DNA from: a virus
Virus record (IMG/VR): IMGVR_UViG_3300036851_000172
Location: 1 to 64,000 of that record
Length of the DNA: 64,000 nucleotides
Reading direction: 5' to 3' (one strand)
Shown here one piece after another: positions 53,311 through 61,193 of this stretch; position 1 is the first letter of the stretch, and the number at the start of each line of letters is the position of its first letter. The notes beneath the pieces were generated by a model. The model saw only the letters and a program-made list of their open reading frames with translations, was not told where the DNA came from and ran no database searches. Position numbers and translations under genes: made by a program.

Positions 53311-53715
53311 TCAGCGTTTGGCTTGGGCTGGCGGCCGGAAATCGCCGTTGAGTTCCGGGAATGGAACGTGGGCCTGTTGGTCGCAGTGCCATGCGATATT
53401 GGAATTTACGACCTCCGGCGGCCTGCCGTCGTCATAGATGCCGATCAAGTCGTCCTTCTCGCCCGTATAACCGCCGAACCCGCCCTTAGCGTTCAGGCGG
53501 ACGCAGACGTGCCACATCATCCCCATGTGCCGGACCGGTGCGGCGACGCTGGCGTTCTTGATGCTGTCCGGGTCTTTCCATAGGCGACCCTTATTGGCGA
53601 GGATGATGGCCTTGGCATCGGGTGGGGCGACCGCCGCTGCATCGCTATCCGTCGATGTGCGGCACGCTGCCGCACCGGCGGCCAGGCAGGCGATGAAACA
53701 GATTCGCCTGATCAC
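53311..53715 (-). CDS. Putative lipoprotein co-transcribed with cI
   Basis: Signal peptide with AAAC lipobox-like motif; KDPDS and VC..LNAK..FGGYTG. Confidence 0.75.
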   Translation of the reverse strand: MIRRICFIACLAAGAAACRTSTDSDAAAVAPPDAKAIILANKGRLWKDPDSIKNASVAAPVRHMGMMWHVCVRLNAKGGFGGYTGEKDDLIGIYDDGRPPEVVNSNIAWHCDQQAHVPFPELNGDFRPPAQAKR

Positions 53716-54056
53716 CTGCGTCTCCTAGATTGCGGCCCGCTGGTCGCCAGTGCCTGAAGCACCTCGATCGCCGTAGCTCGCCGTTCGGCCGGAATCGATT
53801 TCACGAGCGCTACAAGCTCGTCGCCGGTCACTGTTGCGCGCTTGTCGCCCTCACCGGTCAGTAGCCAACCGGCTGAGACGTTGAAGGCCTTCGCGTACAG
53901 CTCTGCCGCATCTTGCGGGATTTTGGCGGTCTGGCCGTTCTCGTGTGACGCGTAGGTCGAAGGGTGCCAGCGATGCCGCAGTGCCGCCGACCGCGCTGAG
54001 CGGAATCCAGCCTCTATTCGGGCTGTCCGGAGCCGATCTTTTGGGAGTTCCGCCAT
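53712..54056 (-). CDS. CI-like XRE repressor (phage B)
   Basis: RL..AR..AGF.SA..AA....W..STYASHENG...YAKAFNVS..WLLTGEG. Confidence 0.85.
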   Translation of the reverse strand: MAELPKDRLRTARIEAGFRSARSAALRHRWHPSTYASHENGQTAKIPQDAAELYAKAFNVSAGWLLTGEGDKRATVTGDELVALVKSIPAERRATAIEVLQALATSGPQSRRRR

Positions 54057-54082
54057 GCCCGCGAGTTTTCCACGGGACATTA

Positions 54083-54124
54083 ACAGAAATCCTGTTGACT
54101 GACTTAACAGAAGTTCTGTAGATT
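54083..54124 (+). promoter_or_regulatory. OR operators and PR of phage B
   Basis: ACAGAAATCCTGT 54083-54095, ACAGAAGTTCTGT 54107-54119; TTGACT-18-TAGATT. Confidence 0.8.
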
Positions 54125-54132
54125 GCGATTCG

Positions 54133-54384
54133 ATGAACACGGACGCCTCACATCATACGGTCGCTGACGTGATCGACGCCTTCGGTGGCAACACCGGCTT
54201 TGCCCGGCTGCTCGCGCTCAAGAACCCATCGAACGCCAGCGAGATGCGTCGGTCCGGGTCGATCCATGTGCGTTATTGGCCGGCGATCATTGATGAGGCG
54301 CGGAAGCGCGGCCCCGAGCTGGATTGGATTACGGCGGATGCGTTGATGTTCATGCACGCGCCGCAAGCCGAGGCCGCGCAATGA
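54133..54384 (+). CDS. Cro-like protein (phage B)
   Basis: VIDAFGG...FARLL...ASEM.R.GSI...YW..II. Confidence 0.8.
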   Translation: MNTDASHHTVADVIDAFGGNTGFARLLALKNPSNASEMRRSGSIHVRYWPAIIDEARKRGPELDWITADALMFMHAPQAEAAQ

Positions 54385-54386
54385 CA

Positions 54387-54641
54387 TCAGTGCAAGTTCG
54401 CATCGATGCCATTGATGGTGGGCGCCCGGCAGTTGGCGATCTCCTGCCACGATCGTCGCTGATCCTCCTCCAAGCCGATCAGTGGTCTGGTCAACGCGCC
54501 GACGATGCGACGTTGCCAGATGCCATTCAAACGGAACCAGTCCCACATCAAAAATCGGACCAATGGGCCGATCACGTAGCACTCGCTCATCGAGTGACAG
54601 TGAATTTCGGGATAGTTTCCGTCGTCGATCACAGGCTCCAT
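54387..54641 (-). CDS. Hypothetical protein convergent with cro (homologue of 8651..8923)
   Basis: GGAGG RBS; MEPVIDDGNYPEI...CYVIGPLVRFLMWDWF..NGIWQRR. Confidence 0.8.
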   Translation of the reverse strand: MEPVIDDGNYPEIHCHSMSECYVIGPLVRFLMWDWFRLNGIWQRRIVGALTRPLIGLEEDQRRSWQEIANCRAPTINGIDANLH

Positions 54642-55129
54642 GCGGTTGTCCCTCCGGTACGCACATCCACCGGTAAACAATGTACACAGAGGTGCTGTGA
54701 TAAGAACATAGGCAATCTGACACCATTGCCGTACGCTGTGGATTGTGCGCTGTTCCAATACGGAACCGGGCATTCCCTGATTGACAAATCGAACTTTCCA
54801 GTTCGGCACCGCGTGGGTGTAGCCCCCATCCGCAGCGGTGGGTGTGAGCCGGCGGTGACTCTGGCTTCCCGCGGTGCCGAAACCGTTTCAGCGTTGCGTC
54901 GCGTTCCTCCTGTTGGTGGCGCGTGCGCTCGCGTTGGCTCAGAGCGCCCGTCCCAACAGGAAAGGAACACAACGTCGCCGCGACGGGCAAACTGCGGCGC
55001 GGCCGATGGGTACGCGGGACAGTCGTCCCGACCGGCCGCGCCGCGTTCTTCCCTGATGGGAGTCGGGGGAGACGAGGCATCAGGGAATCCGTTGTTGTTG
55101 TCGTGTGTGTCGCGTGGGGGCGTTGCGTC

Positions 55130-55387
55130 ATGTCGAGCGAATCACTATCGAGTTCAGTTCCGGGAACAAGCGCAAAGAGGGGACAGTCTCGTCCCCGTAG
55201 GGACAAAATTGTCCCTCGCAAATTTGGGGCCGTCGCCAAGGTCTTATGGACCAAGCCGGCGGCCGTCATCGCCCACATCGCGGGATGCGACGTGCGAACC
55301 GGCAAGCGCATCTTGCGCGGCGAGGCGCCGATTCCCGTCATCGTCTTGCTGGAGGCCTGCAACGAGATGGTGCGCCCGCAGGAATGA
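55130..55387 (+). CDS. CII-position HTH-like regulator (phage B)
   Basis: KPAAVIAHIAGCDVRTGKRILRGE HTH-like segment. Confidence 0.65.
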   Translation: MSSESLSSSVPGTSAKRGQSRPRRDKIVPRKFGAVAKVLWTKPAAVIAHIAGCDVRTGKRILRGEAPIPVIVLLEACNEMVRPQE

Positions 55388-55921
55388 CCAGCGGCAACCG
55401 GGTTACAGCCGCCCGGCGCGTGTGGCCCCGAACGTGGAAAATTCGGGGCGCGCAATTTCACGGTACCCAGAGCGCATGAGCGCAAATCCCGGAGGCCGCA
55501 AGCCGAAGGGGCTGACAGGAACGGCGAGCGCGAGCGCTGTCCTGTCGGCGGATTATCTCGCGCCAGCCGACCCGGCGGCTGTTGAGGGCGTCTGCGGACG
55601 TGAGCCACCGGCGCTCCCATTCCTAGCGAACGCGCAATTGATCTGTGGCCCTATGAAGGAACCGACCCGCCGGGCTGTGGAGAGTATGAAACGTTGCGCT
55701 AGTAGGCTCGCTGCCGGGCGAACGGCAGTAGCGGTCGGAACGTCGGTTGTCGCCGACCGCACCCATTCCTTCCGAGGCCCTACGTCAACCGCCGTATTAG
55801 CCATTCAGGGACGGCCCGCGACCGAAAAGGCCTCGGCTCAGGCGTCGCCTGAATCAGGAGACGCCGGGCGGATGCAGGACCGATGCGTGTCCATCCGCCC
55901 ACCTTTCATCCGAGGTGCCTC
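55388..55921 (+). ncRNA. Candidate structured non-coding RNA (about ten consecutive hairpins)
   Basis: No credible CDS; stems such as GCTGACAGGA/TCCTGTCGGC, GCGGTCGG/CCGACCGC, CCGAGGCC/GGCCTCGG, GGGCGGATG/CATCCGCCC. Confidence 0.5.
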
Positions 55922-56393
55922 ATGAGCGACGGCACGTACAAAGACTTCCTCTGCGAATACCCGTTCGACGGATCCACGTGGTCGTTCACGATCAAGGCCC
56001 GCGACCATGTGGAAGCGGAGGAACGGATCCGCCGCATGTGCTGGGCGGATGTGAAGGGTGAGATCTGTGCCGTCATTCCGGCATCGGTTCCGGGCGCCGG
56101 CTTGTTCGTCCGCGCGACCTGCTGGCTGCGGAACACGTTCGTGCGAGGTGCGGCATGAGCCAACTGCTCGCGATCTACCTCGTCATCGGCGGCATGCTCT
56201 GGCTCTTGTCCGAGATGCTGATGGGCGCCACGCGCGTGGCGTACCTTGAGCGGCTCGATAAAGGCTATTCGGTTGGCTACGTGCGTGCGGTTGCCGTAGT
56301 CGCCATCAGCCTCATCATCGTGTGCTGGCCCATGATTTACGTCGCCGCGATCGTGGGGACTGTCAGGGCGCTGTTGCGAGGTGAGACAACCTG

Positions 56394-57029
56394 ATGACGT
56401 CCCTTTCTCGATCGGAGAGACTCATGAAAACTGAGACAGCAATCGGCGCAGCTATGGAGCGGGCCGGCTTCAATTCCGCGCAGTTGCGGCTACGCCAGGC
56501 CGGTCTGGATGCGCTCAGAAAGCATCATCGCAACATAGGGCGTGCGGTTCCGACGCTGGAAATCGTCGTCGAAGACGATCCCGAACTGATCGGCGAGTTG
56601 GTGCTGAATTATCTTTGCGGTCTCGACGCCGAGGCCAACGGCGGCGGCCGCCCATGCACTGGTGACCAGACATCTGGTGCCGCCGCTCGCAACGGGGCGG
56701 GCCAGGCGTTTGATGCTCACCCGACGGGAAGTGCCCGCCCCGTTCGCGAACCCTCGGCCTCCGATCGTGCCGCGGCCAGCCGCGTCGCTGCGCAGATCGC
56801 TGTGACGATATTCGATCGCGCGAAGACTGCCGACGGCCGCCCCTGGGGCAACGTCGGTGCTCACGAGCTTGATGGCATGGACCGCGACGGCGCGCTTGCG
56901 CGGGCGGTCAAGGCGCGACTGGGGCAACTCTCGAATCGCCAGCGTTTCCAGACATTGCGCGAGTTGATGGCGCCCGATGCCTTCGAGGCGTGCGTCGATG
57001 AGTTGCGGGAGCAATCGCATGACGCGTAA
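56394..57029 (+). CDS. Hypothetical protein carrying two guide-like units in a central linker
   Basis: 211-aa ORF overlapping the start of the Tas-like gene; G/A-rich linker at 56641-56744 coincides with the units. Confidence 0.7.
   Translation: MTSLSRSERLMKTETAIGAAMERAGFNSAQLRLRQAGLDALRKHHRNIGRAVPTLEIVVEDDPELIGELVLNYLCGLDAEANGGGRPCTGDQTSGAAARNGAGQAFDAHPTGSARPVREPSASDRAAASRVAAQIAVTIFDRAKTADGRPWGNVGAHELDGMDRDGALARAVKARLGQLSNRQRFQTLRELMAPDAFEACVDELREQSHDA
56641..56744 (+). ncRNA. TIGR-like stem-loop guide units U1 (56641-56686) and U2 (56691-56744)
   Basis: gcggcgg-CCG-cccatgcac-TG-gtga-CCA-gacatctgg-TG-ccgccgc; aacggggcggg-CCA-ggcgtttga-TG-ctca-CCC-gacgggaag-TG-cccgccccgtt. Confidence 0.85.
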
Positions 57030-58176
57030 GAACTCCATGAATGGCGGCGCGGGTGGCCACAGAGCAGATGTCACCGATGACCATCCTCGAGGTGCCTCCG
57101 CGCCGTCCCCCGACCTCGTCACAACCATCTCCGAAATTCGCTATTGGCATCACCAGCGGGTGTTCGCGATGGATCAGCGAAAGCGGGCTGATCTCGCGCT
57201 CGGCGCCTTCCTGCGGGGCGTATTGGGTTGGTCGAGATCGTTACCGAAGGCAGAGGCTGAGGCCATCAATAGGCGTGCCGCCGATCTCATCGAGACCGGC
57301 GAGCGGATGCTCAAGCAAAAGCAGGGCCGCCCGATCCGTAAGACGGTCAACGGCGCCGATCCGCTCTATCAGGAGTGGGCGAGCTTCATCGAGGGATGCT
57401 TGAACGGGCGCGCGCACTATGTCGCGATCGAGGATAAGGCGGTGGCCGAGATGGAACGCCTTGCGGCATTGCTGCCGGTCGCGTCTTGGTTCAACGCCAA
57501 CGTCTTCTCATCCTCGTTCGTTTCGCTCGCGGTCATCATTGCGGAGACGGGCGACCTGTCTGGCTACGCCAACCCCGGCAAGGTCTGGAAGCGCATGGGC
57601 CTTGCCGTGATGAACGGCGTGCGCCAGGGCGGGTTGCGCAAGACCGCCTCGAAAGACGAATGGATCGCGCACGGGTATAGCGCCAAGCGCCGCTCGTTCA
57701 TGTTCGTCATCGGCGATGTGCTGGTCAAGAAGCAGGGCTATTTGCGCGAGGTCTATCTCGGGGAAAAGCAAAAGCAGCGCACGAAGGCGGTGGCAGCGGG
57801 ATTGACCGTCGCTCCGGCTGCCAAGATTCCGGAAAAGCGCAAGGCGGAATTCATCAGCGATGGCCACATCCACAAGATGTCCCAGCGCTATATGGAAAAA
57901 CGTCTGCTCAAAAATCTTTGGCAGGCGTGGCGGCGGGCCACCCCGAATCTGGAAACCAGTGAATTAGTGCCCGCCGCAAAAATAGAACCGCAGGCCGTCT
58001 CTCTCGTGAATTCCATTGGAGGTTTGCCTGTGGAGCGCTCGGCCAGGCTCGTTCAGCCAACCATACAAAACGTGCCGAGCGCATCTATTCCGGCGAGAGC
58101 CGGTAAGCGGCGGGCCAGGATCGACGCGAACTCCAATGTACCAGTGCCCGCCGCAAATCTATCGCCTACAACCTAA
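57019..58176 (+). CDS. Nuclease-less IS110-related / Nop-domain protein (TasA-like)
   Basis: Coiled-coil N-terminus; LAVIIAETGDLSGYANPGKVWKRMGL (IS110 C-domain-like motif); HKMSQRYMEKRLLKNLWQAW helix; no DEDD/RuvC domain visible; GGGAG RBS before ATG 57019. Confidence 0.82.
   Translation: MTRKNSMNGGAGGHRADVTDDHPRGASAPSPDLVTTISEIRYWHHQRVFAMDQRKRADLALGAFLRGVLGWSRSLPKAEAEAINRRAADLIETGERMLKQKQGRPIRKTVNGADPLYQEWASFIEGCLNGRAHYVAIEDKAVAEMERLAALLPVASWFNANVFSSSFVSLAVIIAETGDLSGYANPGKVWKRMGLAVMNGVRQGGLRKTASKDEWIAHGYSAKRRSFMFVIGDVLVKKQGYLREVYLGEKQKQRTKAVAAGLTVAPAAKIPEKRKAEFISDGHIHKMSQRYMEKRLLKNLWQAWRRATPNLETSELVPAAKIEPQAVSLVNSIGGLPVERSARLVQPTIQNVPSASIPARAGKRRARIDANSNVPVPAANLSPTT
57044..57106 (+). ncRNA. 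TIGR-like stem-loop guide unit U3
   Basis: gcggcgcgggtgg-CCA-cagagcaga-TG-tcaccgatga-CCA-tcctcgagg-TG-cctccgcgccgt (10-nt loop). Confidence 0.8.
57930..58154 (+). ncRNA. TIGR-like stem-loop guide array U4-U7
   Basis: U4 57930-57977, U5 57988-58033, U6 58035-58082, U7 58107-58154; each is stem-CC(A/G)-9nt-(T/A/C)G-4nt-CCA-9nt-TG-stem. Confidence 0.9.
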
Positions 58177-58240
58177 TAACAGTTCGTCGGGTTGCGTGAT
58201 GTTGCTTGCGTATCGTTCACACGAATCGGGAGAAACGAAC

Positions 58241-59350
58241 GTGCAATTTCGCGATCATCCGGCCGTGCAAGGCAAGCGCGATTTCTATCCGGTCGATCCG
58301 CGCAAGCTCAAAGTGGACGACGCATACAATGTAAGAGACATGCAGGCGAAGGAGACGCGTGATCACATCGCCTGGCTGAAGGCATCGATCATCGCGGGCG
58401 GCGTGCACACTCCGCTGGAAGTCCGGCTCGACGGCAAGAATATCTTTGTCGTTGCAGGGCATTGCAGGCTGGCCGCCGTCCTCGAGGCGATCGAGGAAGG
58501 GAATCCGATCGCGACCGTACCCTGCATCCCGGAAGCCAAAGGTACCGACGAGATCGACCGCACGGTCAACCTAGTCATCTCGAATTCCGGCAAGCCGCTG
58601 TCACCATTGGAAGTGGCGAAGGTGGTCAAACGGCTCCAAGGCTACGGCTGGGAGCCGAAGCAGATCGCCGAACGGCTGGGCTGGAAGTCCACCAACACGG
58701 TCAAGCAACATCTCGACATGCTGGCGCTGCCGGAAGGCGTCAAGAAGCACGTCCGTGAAGGCAATGTCTCGGCGACGACAGCGCGTCATCTCGCGAAGGG
58801 CGTCGATCCGGACGAAGCCGAGAAGATGATCCAGGCGAACCTGGAAGAGAACCGGCGCATCAAGGGACCAAGGCGGCGAACGACAGTCACACGAAAAACG
58901 ATCGAGCGGGACAGGCCGAAGCCGCGAGCGGCCGAGGCCAAGTACGAGCCCCAGCCAGTTCCGGAACCGGTAGCGGCATCGGAAACTGTTTCGATTGTTT
59001 TCGGCAAGTCTGGCGGCGCAGGTGGCGGCAACAGCCTTTCGTCGCAGCCTCCAGAGCAGATGCCGGCTCCGGTGGCTGAGCAGCGTGAGACATCAATTCA
59101 GCCAGCCAATCCCGACTGGAACGGCCCAACGCTCGCCGACTGCCAAGTTCGGATTGAGTCGTTCGAACGCCCGCCCGCAGGCGTCAAAGACCTCATCGAC
59201 GCGCTCGCCCCCTTCGCCCACTGCGCCGAGTTGAATTTGCTCTATGCACGCGACGACAGCGAGGTGATCGAGGTTCTTGTCGGCGACATCAAGCGCGCTT
59301 GGAAGGCCTGGTCGAAGGCGACTGGCGCCGACGTGAAGGATGCAGCCTGA
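58241..59350 (+). CDS. ParB/Srx-like N-domain protein with HTH
   Basis: YNVR, LKASI..GGV..PL.V, VVAGHCRLAA (GxxR), N..KPLSPLE.A, IAERLG. Confidence 0.85.
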   Translation: MQFRDHPAVQGKRDFYPVDPRKLKVDDAYNVRDMQAKETRDHIAWLKASIIAGGVHTPLEVRLDGKNIFVVAGHCRLAAVLEAIEEGNPIATVPCIPEAKGTDEIDRTVNLVISNSGKPLSPLEVAKVVKRLQGYGWEPKQIAERLGWKSTNTVKQHLDMLALPEGVKKHVREGNVSATTARHLAKGVDPDEAEKMIQANLEENRRIKGPRRRTTVTRKTIERDRPKPRAAEAKYEPQPVPEPVAASETVSIVFGKSGGAGGGNSLSSQPPEQMPAPVAEQRETSIQPANPDWNGPTLADCQVRIESFERPPAGVKDLIDALAPFAHCAELNLLYARDDSEVIEVLVGDIKRAWKAWSKATGADVKDAA

Positions 59351-59529
59351 TGGCGCGCTACCCGATCCTGCGCGCATCTGCGCATGTCCGCCACGCCACC
59401 GTGGTGGCTGCGGCCTGGTGGTGGTGCCCGCCGGTGATGATGGTGCGGTTGGCCGACCATGCCGACGTCGTCGATGACTTCTACGACGCGTTGGAAGGCA
59501 AGGACGACGACGATGAGGGCGCGGACTGA
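59350..59529 (+). CDS. Small WWWCPP-motif protein (not in ORF track)
   Basis: MARYPILRASAHVRHATVVAAAWWWCPPVMMVRLADHADVVDDFYDALEGKDDDDEGAD*; paralogue of 5497..5679. Confidence 0.75.
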   Translation: MARYPILRASAHVRHATVVAAAWWWCPPVMMVRLADHADVVDDFYDALEGKDDDDEGAD

Positions 59530-60437
59530 TGCAAATCACCCGCGCCAACATCGATGAGCTGCTGGATGCCGGCGCATTGCAATTCAACGGCGGCCCCTAT
59601 GGCTGGCTCGTCATGCGCCGCGACGGGCCAACGGAACGAACGAGGCGAAGCATCTATCTCAACTACGAAGTCGGCGAATGTTTCCAGGTGTTCGGTGCGA
59701 TCGGGGATTATGACTTCGATGTGAACGGCGGGGCGCTGTCGTCGTATTGGTATCGCGTGCGGTTGCAGTGATCGACAGATGATTGAGAGGTGATACTTAT
59801 GGCGACGCCTTTGGAAATAGACATCGCGCTTTGGTACTGCACGAGAGCTGGAGATTATGGCGCCCAGACGGGCGACTACAATTTCCTTGCGCCAGGAGTC
59901 CAAGACGCCTTTCAGCGCATGGTCGATGCTGGCTTGCTGAAGAAGCACGTTCCGAATAGCGACCTTCCACAACATTTCCACAACACCGAAGGCTTGCTGG
60001 TCTACGTCGAAGCGCTCTGCGCCATTCCTTGGCCGGAACAGCGCTGGGTCGTCCCCGACGTATCACACACCAAAGGTGAGCTATAGATGAGCGAAGTCCG
60101 CATCCCGATCTTCATCCAGTGCCGCTCTGGTGAGAAGGCTATCGAGGCATGGGCGCGCAACGCCGATGCGCCGCTTGCCTGTCACCCTATCTACAACAAC
60201 GCCAGTGACGACGGCGCCTGGATCATTACGCATCGCAAGACCGGACTGGTCGTCAATCCTTCGCGCACCTATTCCAAGGATGACGCGCTGGCCCTGATCG
60301 ATATTTACGCACCACTTGCCGATTGGGACGGCGAGCCGATGAAGGTCGCGGGACTGCGTGACGTGATCGAGGCCGCATATGAACAATTCGAGCCATCATC
60401 AAATACGCAACAATCGCTCACTCCGCATGAGCAATAG

Positions 60438-61193
60438 ATGACGCAGCTCGTCCTCTCACTGTTTCCCGGCATTGGTCTGCTCGACATGGCTTTCGAGGAA
60501 GAGGGCTATTGCGTCGTACGCGGGCCGGATTTGCTCTGGGGTGGCGACATCAAACGCTTCCATCCGCCGGCCGGCAAGTTTGAGGGCATCATTGGCGGGC
60601 CGCCGTGTCAGGCATTCTCACGGCTGCGGCATATCGTCGAGGCCAACGGCTACCAAGTCGCAGAGAACCTGATCCCGGAATTTGAGCGCGTTGTCGCTGA
60701 AGCGCAGCCGAAGTGGTTCCTGATGGAGAACGTCCCGGCCGCCCCGGCACCCTTCGTGCCCGGATACGTTGGGGTGTCAAGGATCACGCGCGATTATTGG
60801 GTCGGCGGCATTACCAACCGCGAGCGACGGTTCACGTTCGCTGCATGGGGCTCGTGGGCAGCTGACGGCTTCCATCTGCCTAGCCTTGCTCTACACACGA
60901 CCGAGCCTGAGCACTCGGCACTCGCGTCCGGCGGCGGTCGCCCCGTGCCCGTGGCCGTTGGTGGCAGCGGCAAGGTCAAGCGCAGCAAAAAAAGCGCGCT
61001 GAAAAACTACGGCTACAAGACCGCCGATGCCTTCGCAAACCATTGCCGGCTGCAAGGTCTGCCAGACGATTTTGACTTGCCGCCATTCTCGGTCGCCGCA
61101 AAGGTTAAGGCGGTTGGCAACGGTGTGCCGCTCGCAATGGGGCGCGCCGTAGCGAAGGCAGTCAAAGCCGCAAGTATAGCACACGACGAATAA
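60438..61193 (+). CDS. DNA cytosine-5 methyltransferase
   Basis: SLFPGIG, GGPPCQ.FS, MENV, RER, RLQG.P, VGNGV. Confidence 0.92.
   Translation: MTQLVLSLFPGIGLLDMAFEEEGYCVVRGPDLLWGGDIKRFHPPAGKFEGIIGGPPCQAFSRLRHIVEANGYQVAENLIPEFERVVAEAQPKWFLMENVPAAPAPFVPGYVGVSRITRDYWVGGITNRERRFTFAAWGSWAADGFHLPSLALHTTEPEHSALASGGGRPVPVAVGGSGKVKRSKKSALKNYGYKTADAFANHCRLQGLPDDFDLPPFSVAAKVKAVGNGVPLAMGRAVAKAVKAASIAHDE

What the first reader, a model, noticed from the sequence alone, without database searches (positions are those of the whole stretch)
56648..58176. Guide units are embedded in frame within protein-coding sequence
Seen: U1-U2 lie mid-gene in 56394..57029, U3 just after the Tas-like start codon, and U4-U7 before its stop. 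First-box positions 57938, 57995, 58043 and 58115 are 57, 48 and 72 nt apart, and U1-U2 are 54 apart, all multiples of 3. The longer U3 loop adds 6 nt. The phases used never put the TG box at codon positions 1-2, where TG+A would be a stop. Inference: selection keeps the array translatable, so the mRNA is also the guide precursor and processing could autoregulate the operon. I do not know this arrangement as described.
Basis: partly seen in the sequence, partly recalled or inferred. Interest (0 to 1): 0.8.

Follow-up and report, generated by a model that had tools for sequence, protein, structure and literature searches.

The report
Guide RNA units inside phage genes
Seven hairpin guide-RNA units of a phage TIGR-Tas system lie inside protein-coding sequence, in reading-frame positions that keep it translatable; the layout is real but was already reported in a 2026 preprint.

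Summary
Seven units of the form stem, CCA, 9 nt, TG, linker, CCA, 9 nt, TG, stem lie on the + strand at the stated positions. This matches the published motif of stem-loop TIGR arrays.

ORF 57019..58176 is a Tas protein without a recognisable nuclease domain (PDB 9MTY TasR, E 1.1e-11; NCBIfam TIGR_Tas_endo, E 1.4e-21, below its cut-off). The contig is a 73-kb phage-like soil sequence.

In 132 homologous loci my detector found 448 units on the tas strand and 6 on the other strand. In the 107 non-redundant loci:
- Only 2 of 150 units inside the tas open frame put a box C at codon position 1, against 40 of 85 units after the stop.
- Spacing is a multiple of 3 in 24 of 29 adjacent tail pairs, against 13 of 47 after the stop.

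So translatability is selected where units are embedded. Embedding is optional, though: 32 loci carry units after the tas stop.

U1-U2 sit in the variable middle of a conserved upstream gene of unknown function.

A September 2026 preprint already describes in-frame intragenic stem-loop tigRNAs in disordered parts of Tas. Precursor identity and autoregulation remain untested.

The parts
56394..57029 (+). Conserved upstream gene (211 aa, function unknown). It has N- and C-terminal conserved parts joined by a variable middle that holds U1-U2.
   Evidence: 29 database relatives. Alignment A2 shows the conserved ends and a variable middle. A family profile finds it just upstream of tas in 41 of 82 eligible non-redundant loci, 25 of them with units inside. 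No Pfam, PHROG, NCBIfam or PDB match.
56640..56687 (+). U1: 8-bp stem, boxes CCG/TG and CCA/TG, two 9-nt spacers, linker 4.
   Evidence: (I17). Fold z -3.02. Box C is at codon position 3 of the upstream gene.
56691..56744 (+). U2: 11-bp stem, boxes CCA/TG and CCC/TG, linker 4.
   Evidence: (I3). Fold z -2.84. Codon position 3.
57019..58176 (+). tasA-like gene (385 aa) from ATG 57019, which has GGGAG 7 nt upstream. The structured core is about residues 30-312; the N-terminal about 30 and C-terminal about 75 residues are unit-encoded tails.
   Evidence: A1 profile against PDB 9MTY (TasR): E 1.1e-11, chain residues 154-295. 9MTY is identified as TasR in PMC12045711. NCBIfam NF052498 TIGR_Tas_endo: E 1.4e-21, 77.5 bits against a cut-off of 100. 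phrog_4285: 3.3e-14. Atlas structural hits align only residues 28-312. Pfam: none.
57045..57105 (+). U3: a variant unit with an imperfect stem, boxes CCA/TG twice and linker 10.
   Evidence: (I14). Fold z -3.29. A matching linker-10 unit sits at the same place in L053. Not found by my strict detector.
57930..57977 (+). U4: all four boxes perfect. Its 5' stem arm is encoded in the conserved end of the Tas core (peptide W-R-R-A).
   Evidence: (I8). Fold z -3.98. Alignment A1.
57988..58033 (+). U5: 7-bp stem with one G-U pair, boxes CCG/TG and CCA/TG.
   Evidence: Fold z -3.65.
58032..58085 (+). U6: boxes CCA/AG and CCA/TG.
   Evidence: (I10). Fold z -3.19.
58090..58103 (+). Small 5-bp hairpin with a GAGA loop in the U6-U7 linker, encoded as part of the conserved peptide I-P-A-K/R-A-G-K.
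   Evidence: Fold -9.8 kcal/mol, z -2.97. Different but complementary stems occur at the same place in L053, L054, L068 and L095. The peptide is conserved in A1.
58107..58154 (+). U7: boxes CCA/CG and CCA/TG. The tas stop TAA lies at 58174-58176, 20 nt after the stem.
   Evidence: (I9). Fold z -2.33.
58241..59350 (+). ParB-like gene, starting at GTG with GGGAG upstream, 64 nt after the tas stop.
   Evidence: PF17762 HTH_ParB 1.5e-10. phrog_1033 7.6e-50. TIGR00180 3.4e-10, below its cut-off. tblastn found this ParB in only 1 of the fetched loci.

Best explanation
The seven units are genuine stem-loop tigRNA genes of a TIGR-TasA system in the early region of a temperate-phage-like contig. Each would give a hairpin RNA with two 9-nt spacers flanked by box C (CCA) and box D (TG). 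By analogy with characterised TasA proteins, this RNA guides a nuclease-less Tas dimer to DNA, probably as a repressor.

The units overlap translated sequence:
- the variable middle of a conserved upstream gene (U1-U2);
- the N-terminal tail of TasA (U3);
- the C-terminal tail of TasA (U4-U7).

The sequence there is shaped mainly by the RNA. The encoded peptide is an Ala/Pro/Ser/Gly-rich passenger. Translation still imposes a rule: box C sits at codon position 2 or 3, never 1. In those phases the fixed TG is read as NTG or as NNT+GNN, never as TGN (Cys, Trp or stop), and only two codons per spacer are free to become stops. Units are gained and lost in whole codons.

Shown here: unit anatomy, Tas kinship, strand bias, the phase rule and the optional nature of embedding.

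Inferred: that the units are expressed and bound by TasA, that the tails are disordered, and that one transcript serves as both mRNA and guide precursor.
For: [quoted passage not shown] Matches are.

Tas kinship.

Family association: 448 units on the tas strand against 6 on the opposite strand in 132 loci. 102 of the 132 loci have at least one unit.

Phase rule, in 107 non-redundant loci:
- Units inside the tas open frame split 0/51/14 (3' tail) and 0/13/43 (5') by codon position 1/2/3. Units after the stop split 28/24/33.
- Either box C is at position 1 in 2 of 150 in-frame units against 40 of 85 after the stop (Fisher 6e-19).
- Units with linkers of 8 or 9 nt shift their first box so that neither box falls on position 1.
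- A null model based only on stop codons would still leave about 20% at position 1. After-stop units are stop-free in 0.39/0.81/0.71 of cases when read in phase 1/2/3.
- In the 11 loci that have units on both sides of the stop: 0 of 23 against 11 of 23.
- At 70% identity clustering: 2 of 40 clusters against 14 of 19.

Spacing is a multiple of 3 in 24 of 29 tail pairs against 13 of 47 after the stop.

Upstream gene: 42 units in 25 loci, 2 with a box C at position 1.

Obligatory translation: 18 of 44 5' units in 15 of 19 loci have no start codon between them and the conserved core.

Preservation: embedded units are as well kept as non-coding ones. Perfect boxes are 0.57 and 0.48 against 0.56; stems are 8.1-8.3 against 8.6 pairs.

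Peptide composition is Ala, Pro, Ser, Gly, Arg and Thr rich.

Window against L053: tail spacings are 57, 48, 72 against 57, 48, 72, 72, 72.
Against: - There are no expression, processing or proteomic data for this locus. No RNA holder was listed.
Disorder of the tails rests on composition and on Atlas alignments stopping at residues 28-312.
- After the core, the tas frame is no more open than the +1 frame. It traverses 66 of 154 units, against 53 for +1 and 26 for +2. Median open length is 72 against 91 nt.
- 85 units in 32 loci lie after the stop, so selection does not generally keep arrays translatable.
- The tail shows no coding-type GC periodicity: 0.62/0.57/0.61 against 0.60/0.43/0.79 in the core.
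- The detector is my own imitation of the published rules.
- Loci are related, so unit counts are not independent events.
- U3 fails the strict detector.
- The NCBIfam score is below the family cut-off.
Confidence: 0.8

Rival explanations
1. Incidental read-through. The units are RNA genes only. In 60% GC DNA the tas and upstream frames simply run on through them until a chance stop, with no selection on translation.
For: The tas frame is no more open than the +1 frame after the core. Many homologues stop before the array. The tail and the spacers show no GC3 enrichment.
Against: A null based on stop codons alone predicts about 20% of embedded units at codon position 1. Observed: 2 of 150. Spacings of differing length are all multiples of 3 in tails (24 of 29) but not after stops (13 of 47). 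U1-U2 and their counterparts lie between two conserved protein parts in one frame. U3 and 18 other 5' units cannot be skipped by any start codon.
Confidence: 0.1
2. The embedded units are transcribed from their own internal promoters and not cut from the operon mRNA. In that case there is no coupling between guide production and translation.
For: The preprint states that both routes are open (Discussion).
Against: The consensus scan found only one sigma-70-like site in 53500-60500, at 54095-54124 and far upstream. It found no convincing terminator between that site and the array. This is weak evidence, because phage and non-sigma-70 promoters are not covered.
Confidence: 0.2
3. The repeats are peptide repeats selected at the protein level, for example a repeated binding motif in the Tas tail. 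The hairpins are then a by-product.
For: Peptide motifs recur in homologous tails: R-R-A ... V-P-A-A, E-R-S-A ... P-S-A, and I-P-A-K-A-G-K.
Against: The same nucleotide unit occurs after stop codons in all three phases (28/24/33). It occurs 448 to 6 on one strand. Stems differ in sequence but stay complementary. The spacers vary freely. Composition is not coding-like.
Confidence: 0.03
4. The embedded units are decayed relics of arrays swallowed by frame extension and no longer act as guides.
For: Four of the six strict window units have one box mismatch, and U3 has an imperfect stem.
Against: Across the family, embedded and non-coding units have the same share of perfect boxes and the same stem length. 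The preprint reports sequenced small RNAs from a unit embedded in a TasA coding sequence (BlTasA; section read).
Confidence: 0.07

Closest known systems
Stem-loop TIGR-Tas systems with intragenic tigRNAs (Xu et al., bioRxiv 10.64898/2026.09.09.750476; example Bifidobacterium longum TasA). I read Results sections, the Discussion and method passages; figures and supplements were not seen.
   Same: Same unit grammar: box C CCA type, box D TG, 9-nt spacers, palindromic stems. [quoted passage not shown] The same suggestion is made that guide maturation and Tas translation are linked.
   Different: Two of the units here lie inside a second, conserved non-tas gene. In the passages I read, the text does not mention neighbouring genes, codon phase or spacing in whole codons (0 occurrences of 'neighbor' and 'adjacent gene'). 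The embedded BlTasA unit maps to the wedge loop, whereas the units here map to the terminal tails.
Peromyscus leucopus gut TasA with a stem-loop array (Faure et al. 2025, Science, PMC12045711; Guan et al., bioRxiv 10.64898/2026.08.11.744272). Passages read.
   Same: [quoted passage not shown] The RNAs were shown to be expressed and processed, and the structure was solved.
   Different: That array is described as 13 units in three subarrays separated by an intergenic region of about 450 nt, not as coding. No sequence comparison with it was made here.
tasA-tasParB operons (Faure et al. 2025, PMC12045711, methods section 44; passage read)
   Same: A ParB-like gene follows tasA on the same strand.
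   Different: The published operons carry dual-repeat arrays between or around the genes, whereas this locus has a stem-loop array inside genes. This ParB was found in only 1 of the fetched homologous loci, so it is not a conserved partner in this clade.
Box C/D small RNAs and their Nop-domain proteins (recalled background; kinship stated in PMC12045711)
   Same: [quoted passage not shown]
   Different: Those RNAs guide RNA methylation with fibrillarin and L7Ae. These units have two DNA-targeting spacers and short boxes (CCA/TG). Rfam has no match in 55500-59000.

Membership tests
TIGR-Tas system, stem-loop class | A Tas protein with a Nop-type C-terminal RNA-binding domain | tested here: met
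   Profile of 25 homologues against PDB 9MTY (TasR): E 1.1e-11 over chain residues 154-295. NCBIfam TIGR_Tas_endo: E 1.4e-21, but 77.5 bits is below the cut-off of 100. This is at sequence level only; no fold could be predicted.
TIGR-Tas system, stem-loop class | Units with two spacers of about 9 nt, each between a box C (CCA, CGA, CTA or CAA) and a box D (TG or CG), the two halves at most 15 nt apart | tested here: met
   All seven units fit. Single-base box variants occur in U1, U2, U5 and U6; the CG first box D of U7 is within the published set. Linkers are 4 nt, or 10 nt in U3. The rule is taken from the preprint's methods.
TIGR-Tas system, stem-loop class | A palindromic stem of at least 5 bp flanking each spacer pair, variable in sequence between units | tested here: met
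   Contiguous stems of 7-11 bp in six units. U3 has a mismatch and a bulge. Fold z-scores run from -2.3 to -4.0.
TIGR-Tas system, stem-loop class | Units clustered next to tas on the tas strand, recurring in homologous loci | tested here: met
   448 units on the tas strand against 6 on the other strand in 132 loci. 102 of 132 loci have at least one unit.
TIGR-Tas system, stem-loop class | Units are transcribed, processed and bound by Tas | not testable with these tools
   No RNA holder listed.
TasA subtype (no nuclease domain) | Absence of a RuvC or HNH domain N-terminal to the coiled coil and Nop domain | tested here: inconclusive
   No Pfam family at E up to 0.1. The whole core (residues 33-312) aligns with a 237-aa protein cluster at TM 0.91 by that row. 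This leaves no room for a nuclease domain, but no fold of my own could be made.
Intragenic tigRNA arrangement (Xu et al. 2026) | Units inside the tas coding sequence, frame intact, in non-structured segments | tested here: met
   U3 and U4-U7 lie inside 57019..58176 with 0 in-frame stops. They fall outside residues 28-312, the only part aligned by Atlas structural hits. Peptide composition is Ala/Pro/Ser/Gly rich. Disorder itself was not modelled.
tasA-tasParB operon (Faure et al. 2025) | A ParB-like gene operonic with tasA and conserved across related loci | tested here: inconclusive
   A ParB-like gene lies 64 nt downstream. Only 1 fetched locus holds a relative of it. Other ParB families downstream were not searched.

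The most novel reading that the evidence does not exclude
In this Tas clade the guide array is a true dual-coding element spread over two genes of one operon. Each transcript is then either translated, with ribosomes melting the hairpins, or diced into guides, which cuts the upstream gene in its middle, removes the tasA start region and removes the tasA tail. Guide supply and the levels of TasA and its conserved partner would set each other.

The codon-phase rule (box C never at codon position 1, units gained in whole codons) would be the evolutionary trace of this coupling. Disordered protein tails would serve as the place where new units arise.
Probability: 0.3. Interest if true: 0.6.

Novelty: new member of a known kind. 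Interest (0 to 1): 0.4.

Why it matters

This locus and its 107 non-redundant relatives give a sequence-only test that embedded guides are read by ribosomes. They also give a simple design rule for placing a guide unit inside a coding sequence: box C at codon position 2 or 3, and spacing in whole codons.

They show that embedding extends to a conserved partner gene of unknown function. That gene is a candidate accessory factor.

The locus is a good natural case for asking experimentally whether guide maturation and translation compete on one transcript.

Tried and rejected
No fold, no fold search and no per-residue confidence were obtained.
- RNA evidence: no RNA holder listed. One DNA run, possibly the source sample.
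- Self-targets: I searched the 73,333-nt contig for both spacers of each unit on opposite strands, in both orders, with gaps of 0-2 and up to 3 mismatches. There were 2 hits, both with 3 mismatches. My own estimate of the chance expectation is about 2, so there is no target. Public-collection searches for 18-nt targets were not run, because chance matches would dominate.
- Rfam: no match at E up to 1 in 55500-59000.
- Upstream gene function: no match in Pfam, PHROGs, NCBIfam or by A2 profile against PDB. Atlas gave only unnamed viral clusters below 0.9 and a poor model, pTM 0.26.
- Test that the tas frame is kept open over arrays, by open length after the core in the three frames: negative. 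Frame 0 did not exceed frame +1.
- GC3 periodicity in embedded spacers as a sign of codon selection: absent.
- ParB as a conserved partner: found in only 1 locus.
- The next-gene analysis used a crude ORF rule in GC-rich DNA. I treat it as a lead only.
- Two loci of 132 had no usable match over the core end and were dropped. Twenty-three were dropped as duplicates, leaving 107.
- Supplements and figures of the papers were not seen. The preprint's supplementary tables and Fig. 1d may already hold phase or neighbour-gene data.
Full report
WHAT IS THERE

On the + strand between 56640 and 58154 lie seven hairpin units with one grammar: a 7-11 bp stem, CCA, 9 nt, TG, a 4-nt linker (10 nt in U3), CCA, 9 nt, TG, and the complementary stem arm.
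- Five perfect inverted repeats have exactly 30 nt between their arms.
- The strict pattern is over-represented in the window: 10 matches against 3.37 expected, and 0 of 100 shuffles reach 10. Four of the 10 matches are units.
- In a relaxed scan of both strands of the 64 kb, the six regular units are the only hits with at most one box mismatch.
- All units fold with the outer stem, with z between -2.3 and -4.0.
- U3 is a weaker unit with a mismatch and a bulge. The closest homologue has a linker-10 unit at the same place.

Every number in the finding is right. Box C starts, spacings of 57, 48, 72 and 54, the 6 extra nucleotides in U3, and the codon positions all hold: position 3 for U1-U3 and position 2 for U4-U7.

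WHAT IT IS

The grammar is that of stem-loop TIGR arrays. The detection rules in bioRxiv 10.64898/2026.09.09.750476 name box C as CCA, CGA, CTA or CAA, box D as TG or CG, 9-nt spacers, halves at most 15 nt apart, and a stem of at least 5 bp (method passages).

The ORF 57019..58176 is a Tas protein:
- A profile of 25 homologues hits PDB 9MTY with E 1.1e-11 over the C-terminal domain. The Science paper identifies 9MTY as TasR.
- NCBIfam TIGR_Tas_endo matches at E 1.4e-21, below its cut-off.
- Pfam finds nothing.
- Atlas structural neighbours align only residues 28-312, and one 237-aa cluster covers that whole core. So there is no room for a nuclease domain, which makes this a TasA-like protein.

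The genome held for this window is a single 73,333-nt contig, found in one soil-metagenome run. It carries:
- an endolysin-like gene;
- a CI-like repressor at 53712..54140 on the - strand;
- a DNA methyltransferase;
- a ParB-like gene 64 nt after tas.

The genes from 55883 to 57029 overlap stop to start (and the sequence). The only sigma-70-like site in 53500-60500 is at 54095-54124. This fits one long early transcript but does not prove it.

FAMILY EVIDENCE

I fetched 132 loci encoding relatives of this Tas. My detector, an imitation of the published rules, found 448 units on the tas strand and 6 on the other strand. Of the 132 loci, 102 have at least one unit. After dropping 2 loci without a usable core match and 23 duplicates, 107 loci with 369 units remained.

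Codon position of the first base of box C in the tas frame:

| Location of unit | Position 1 | Position 2 | Position 3 |
|---|---|---|---|
| 3' tail, before the stop | 0 | 51 | 14 |
| Open frame 5' of the core | 0 | 13 | 43 |
| After the stop | 28 | 24 | 33 |

- Counting both halves of a unit, 2 of 150 in-frame units put a box C at position 1, against 40 of 85 after the stop.
- Units with 8- or 9-nt linkers start in whichever phase keeps both halves off position 1.
- Stop codons alone do not explain this. After-stop units are stop-free in 39%, 81% and 71% of cases when read in phase 1, 2 or 3, which would leave about 20% at position 1.
- The contrast holds within the 11 loci that have units on both sides of the stop: 0 of 23 against 11 of 23.
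- It also holds after clustering Tas at 70% identity: 2 of 40 clusters against 14 of 19.
- Adjacent units are a multiple of 3 apart in 24 of 29 tail pairs, with differing lengths, against 13 of 47 after the stop.
- The closest relative (L053, 58% identity) has the window's spacings of 57, 48 and 72, followed by two more units at 72 and 72.

THE UPSTREAM GENE

ORF 56394..57029 has 29 database relatives, with conserved N- and C-terminal parts and a middle of variable length.
- A profile finds the family directly upstream of tas in 41 of 82 loci with enough flank.
- In 25 of those it holds 42 units in the same frame as both conserved parts, and 2 of the 42 have a box C at position 1.
- A tblastn version gave 0/4/35 by codon position for 39 units.

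So U1-U2 are translated as a linker of a real protein of unknown function. In the preprint text I read, only the tas coding sequence is named as a host of intragenic units. The words 'neighbor' and 'adjacent gene' do not occur. Figures and supplements were not seen.

WHAT ARGUES FOR CAUTION

- Embedding is optional. Thirty-two loci carry 85 units after the tas stop, in random phase.
- Read from the end of the core, the tas frame is no more open than the +1 frame. It traverses 66 of 154 units, against 53 and 26 for the other frames.
- The embedded stretches are not coding-like in composition. GC by codon position is 0.62/0.57/0.61 in the window tail against 0.60/0.43/0.79 in the core. Embedded spacers show no GC3 excess.
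- Embedded units are as well kept as non-coding ones.

My reading is that the RNA dictates the sequence and the peptide is a tolerated passenger rich in Ala, Pro, Ser, Gly, Arg and Thr. Translation only forbids the phase that would read TG as Cys, Trp or stop. That the 5' units must be translated follows from 18 of 44 of them, in 15 of 19 loci, having no start codon between the unit and the conserved core. U3 in the window is the same case.

MECHANISM AND NOVELTY

By analogy with characterised TasA proteins, the units would be cut out, bound by a TasA dimer, and direct it to 18-bp DNA sites as a repressor (preprint Results and Discussion; Science paper). No target exists in the contig itself.

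This is plausible and is also suggested in the preprint, which leaves processing against internal promoters open. Nothing here tests it.

The arrangement is therefore already described: the only paper in the library holding both 'tigRNA' and 'intragenic' is that preprint. This locus is a new member. The points I did not find in the text I read are the codon-phase rule, the gain of units in whole codons, and the embedding in a conserved partner gene.

Noticed in passing
window 58090-58103; L053, L054, L068 and L095 linkers: A 5-bp hairpin with a four-base loop (GAGA here; GAAA, CAAA or GCAA in relatives) sits in the linker before one of the last units. The stems differ between loci but stay complementary. 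It is encoded as the conserved peptide I-P-A-K-A-G-K. It may be a processing or stabilising element of the array. The exact window pattern was absent from all 107 loci, so the relatives were seen by eye only.
   Followed up: partly
L016, L027, L044, L047, L064, L068, L080; L053, L095: Where the array is embedded in the Tas tail, the tas stop often overlaps or abuts the next start codon (ATGA or TGATG). Where the array is non-coding, it fills a gap of 300-500 nt before the next ORF (L015, L051, L066, L086). Reading through the array may serve translational coupling to the next gene. In the window the gap to the ParB-like gene is 64 nt, so this does not apply here. The ORF calling was crude.
   Followed up: partly
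107 homologous loci: Units 5' of the Tas core and inside the upstream gene mostly use codon position 3 (43 of 56; 35 of 39). Tail units mostly use position 2 (51 of 65). Position 3 reads the boxes as His/Gln and as Gly/Ala/Asp/Glu/Val codons. Position 2 reads TG as Leu/Val/Met. Whether this reflects ancestry or a different tolerance of the two protein ends is unexplained.
   Followed up: no
window 54133-54384 (+) and 53712-54140 (-): A small protein with a carph-isopro domain match (E 1.1e-08, 35.1 bits against a cut-off of 38) lies head to head with a CI-like repressor. The only sigma-70-like site of the region lies between them (54095-54124). This is probably the lysogeny switch from which the tas operon is read.
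   Followed up: no
window 54148-55925: Two very long ORFs overlap on opposite strands (490 aa on the - strand, 533 aa on the + strand), between the switch region and the tas operon. Neither was tested. One or both may be artefacts of GC-rich DNA.
   Followed up: no
window 55883-57029: Three small genes (91, 79 and 211 aa) overlap stop to start with one another, and the last overlaps the tasA start by 11 nt. The 91-aa and 79-aa proteins had no relatives in the 132 fetched loci.
   Followed up: partly
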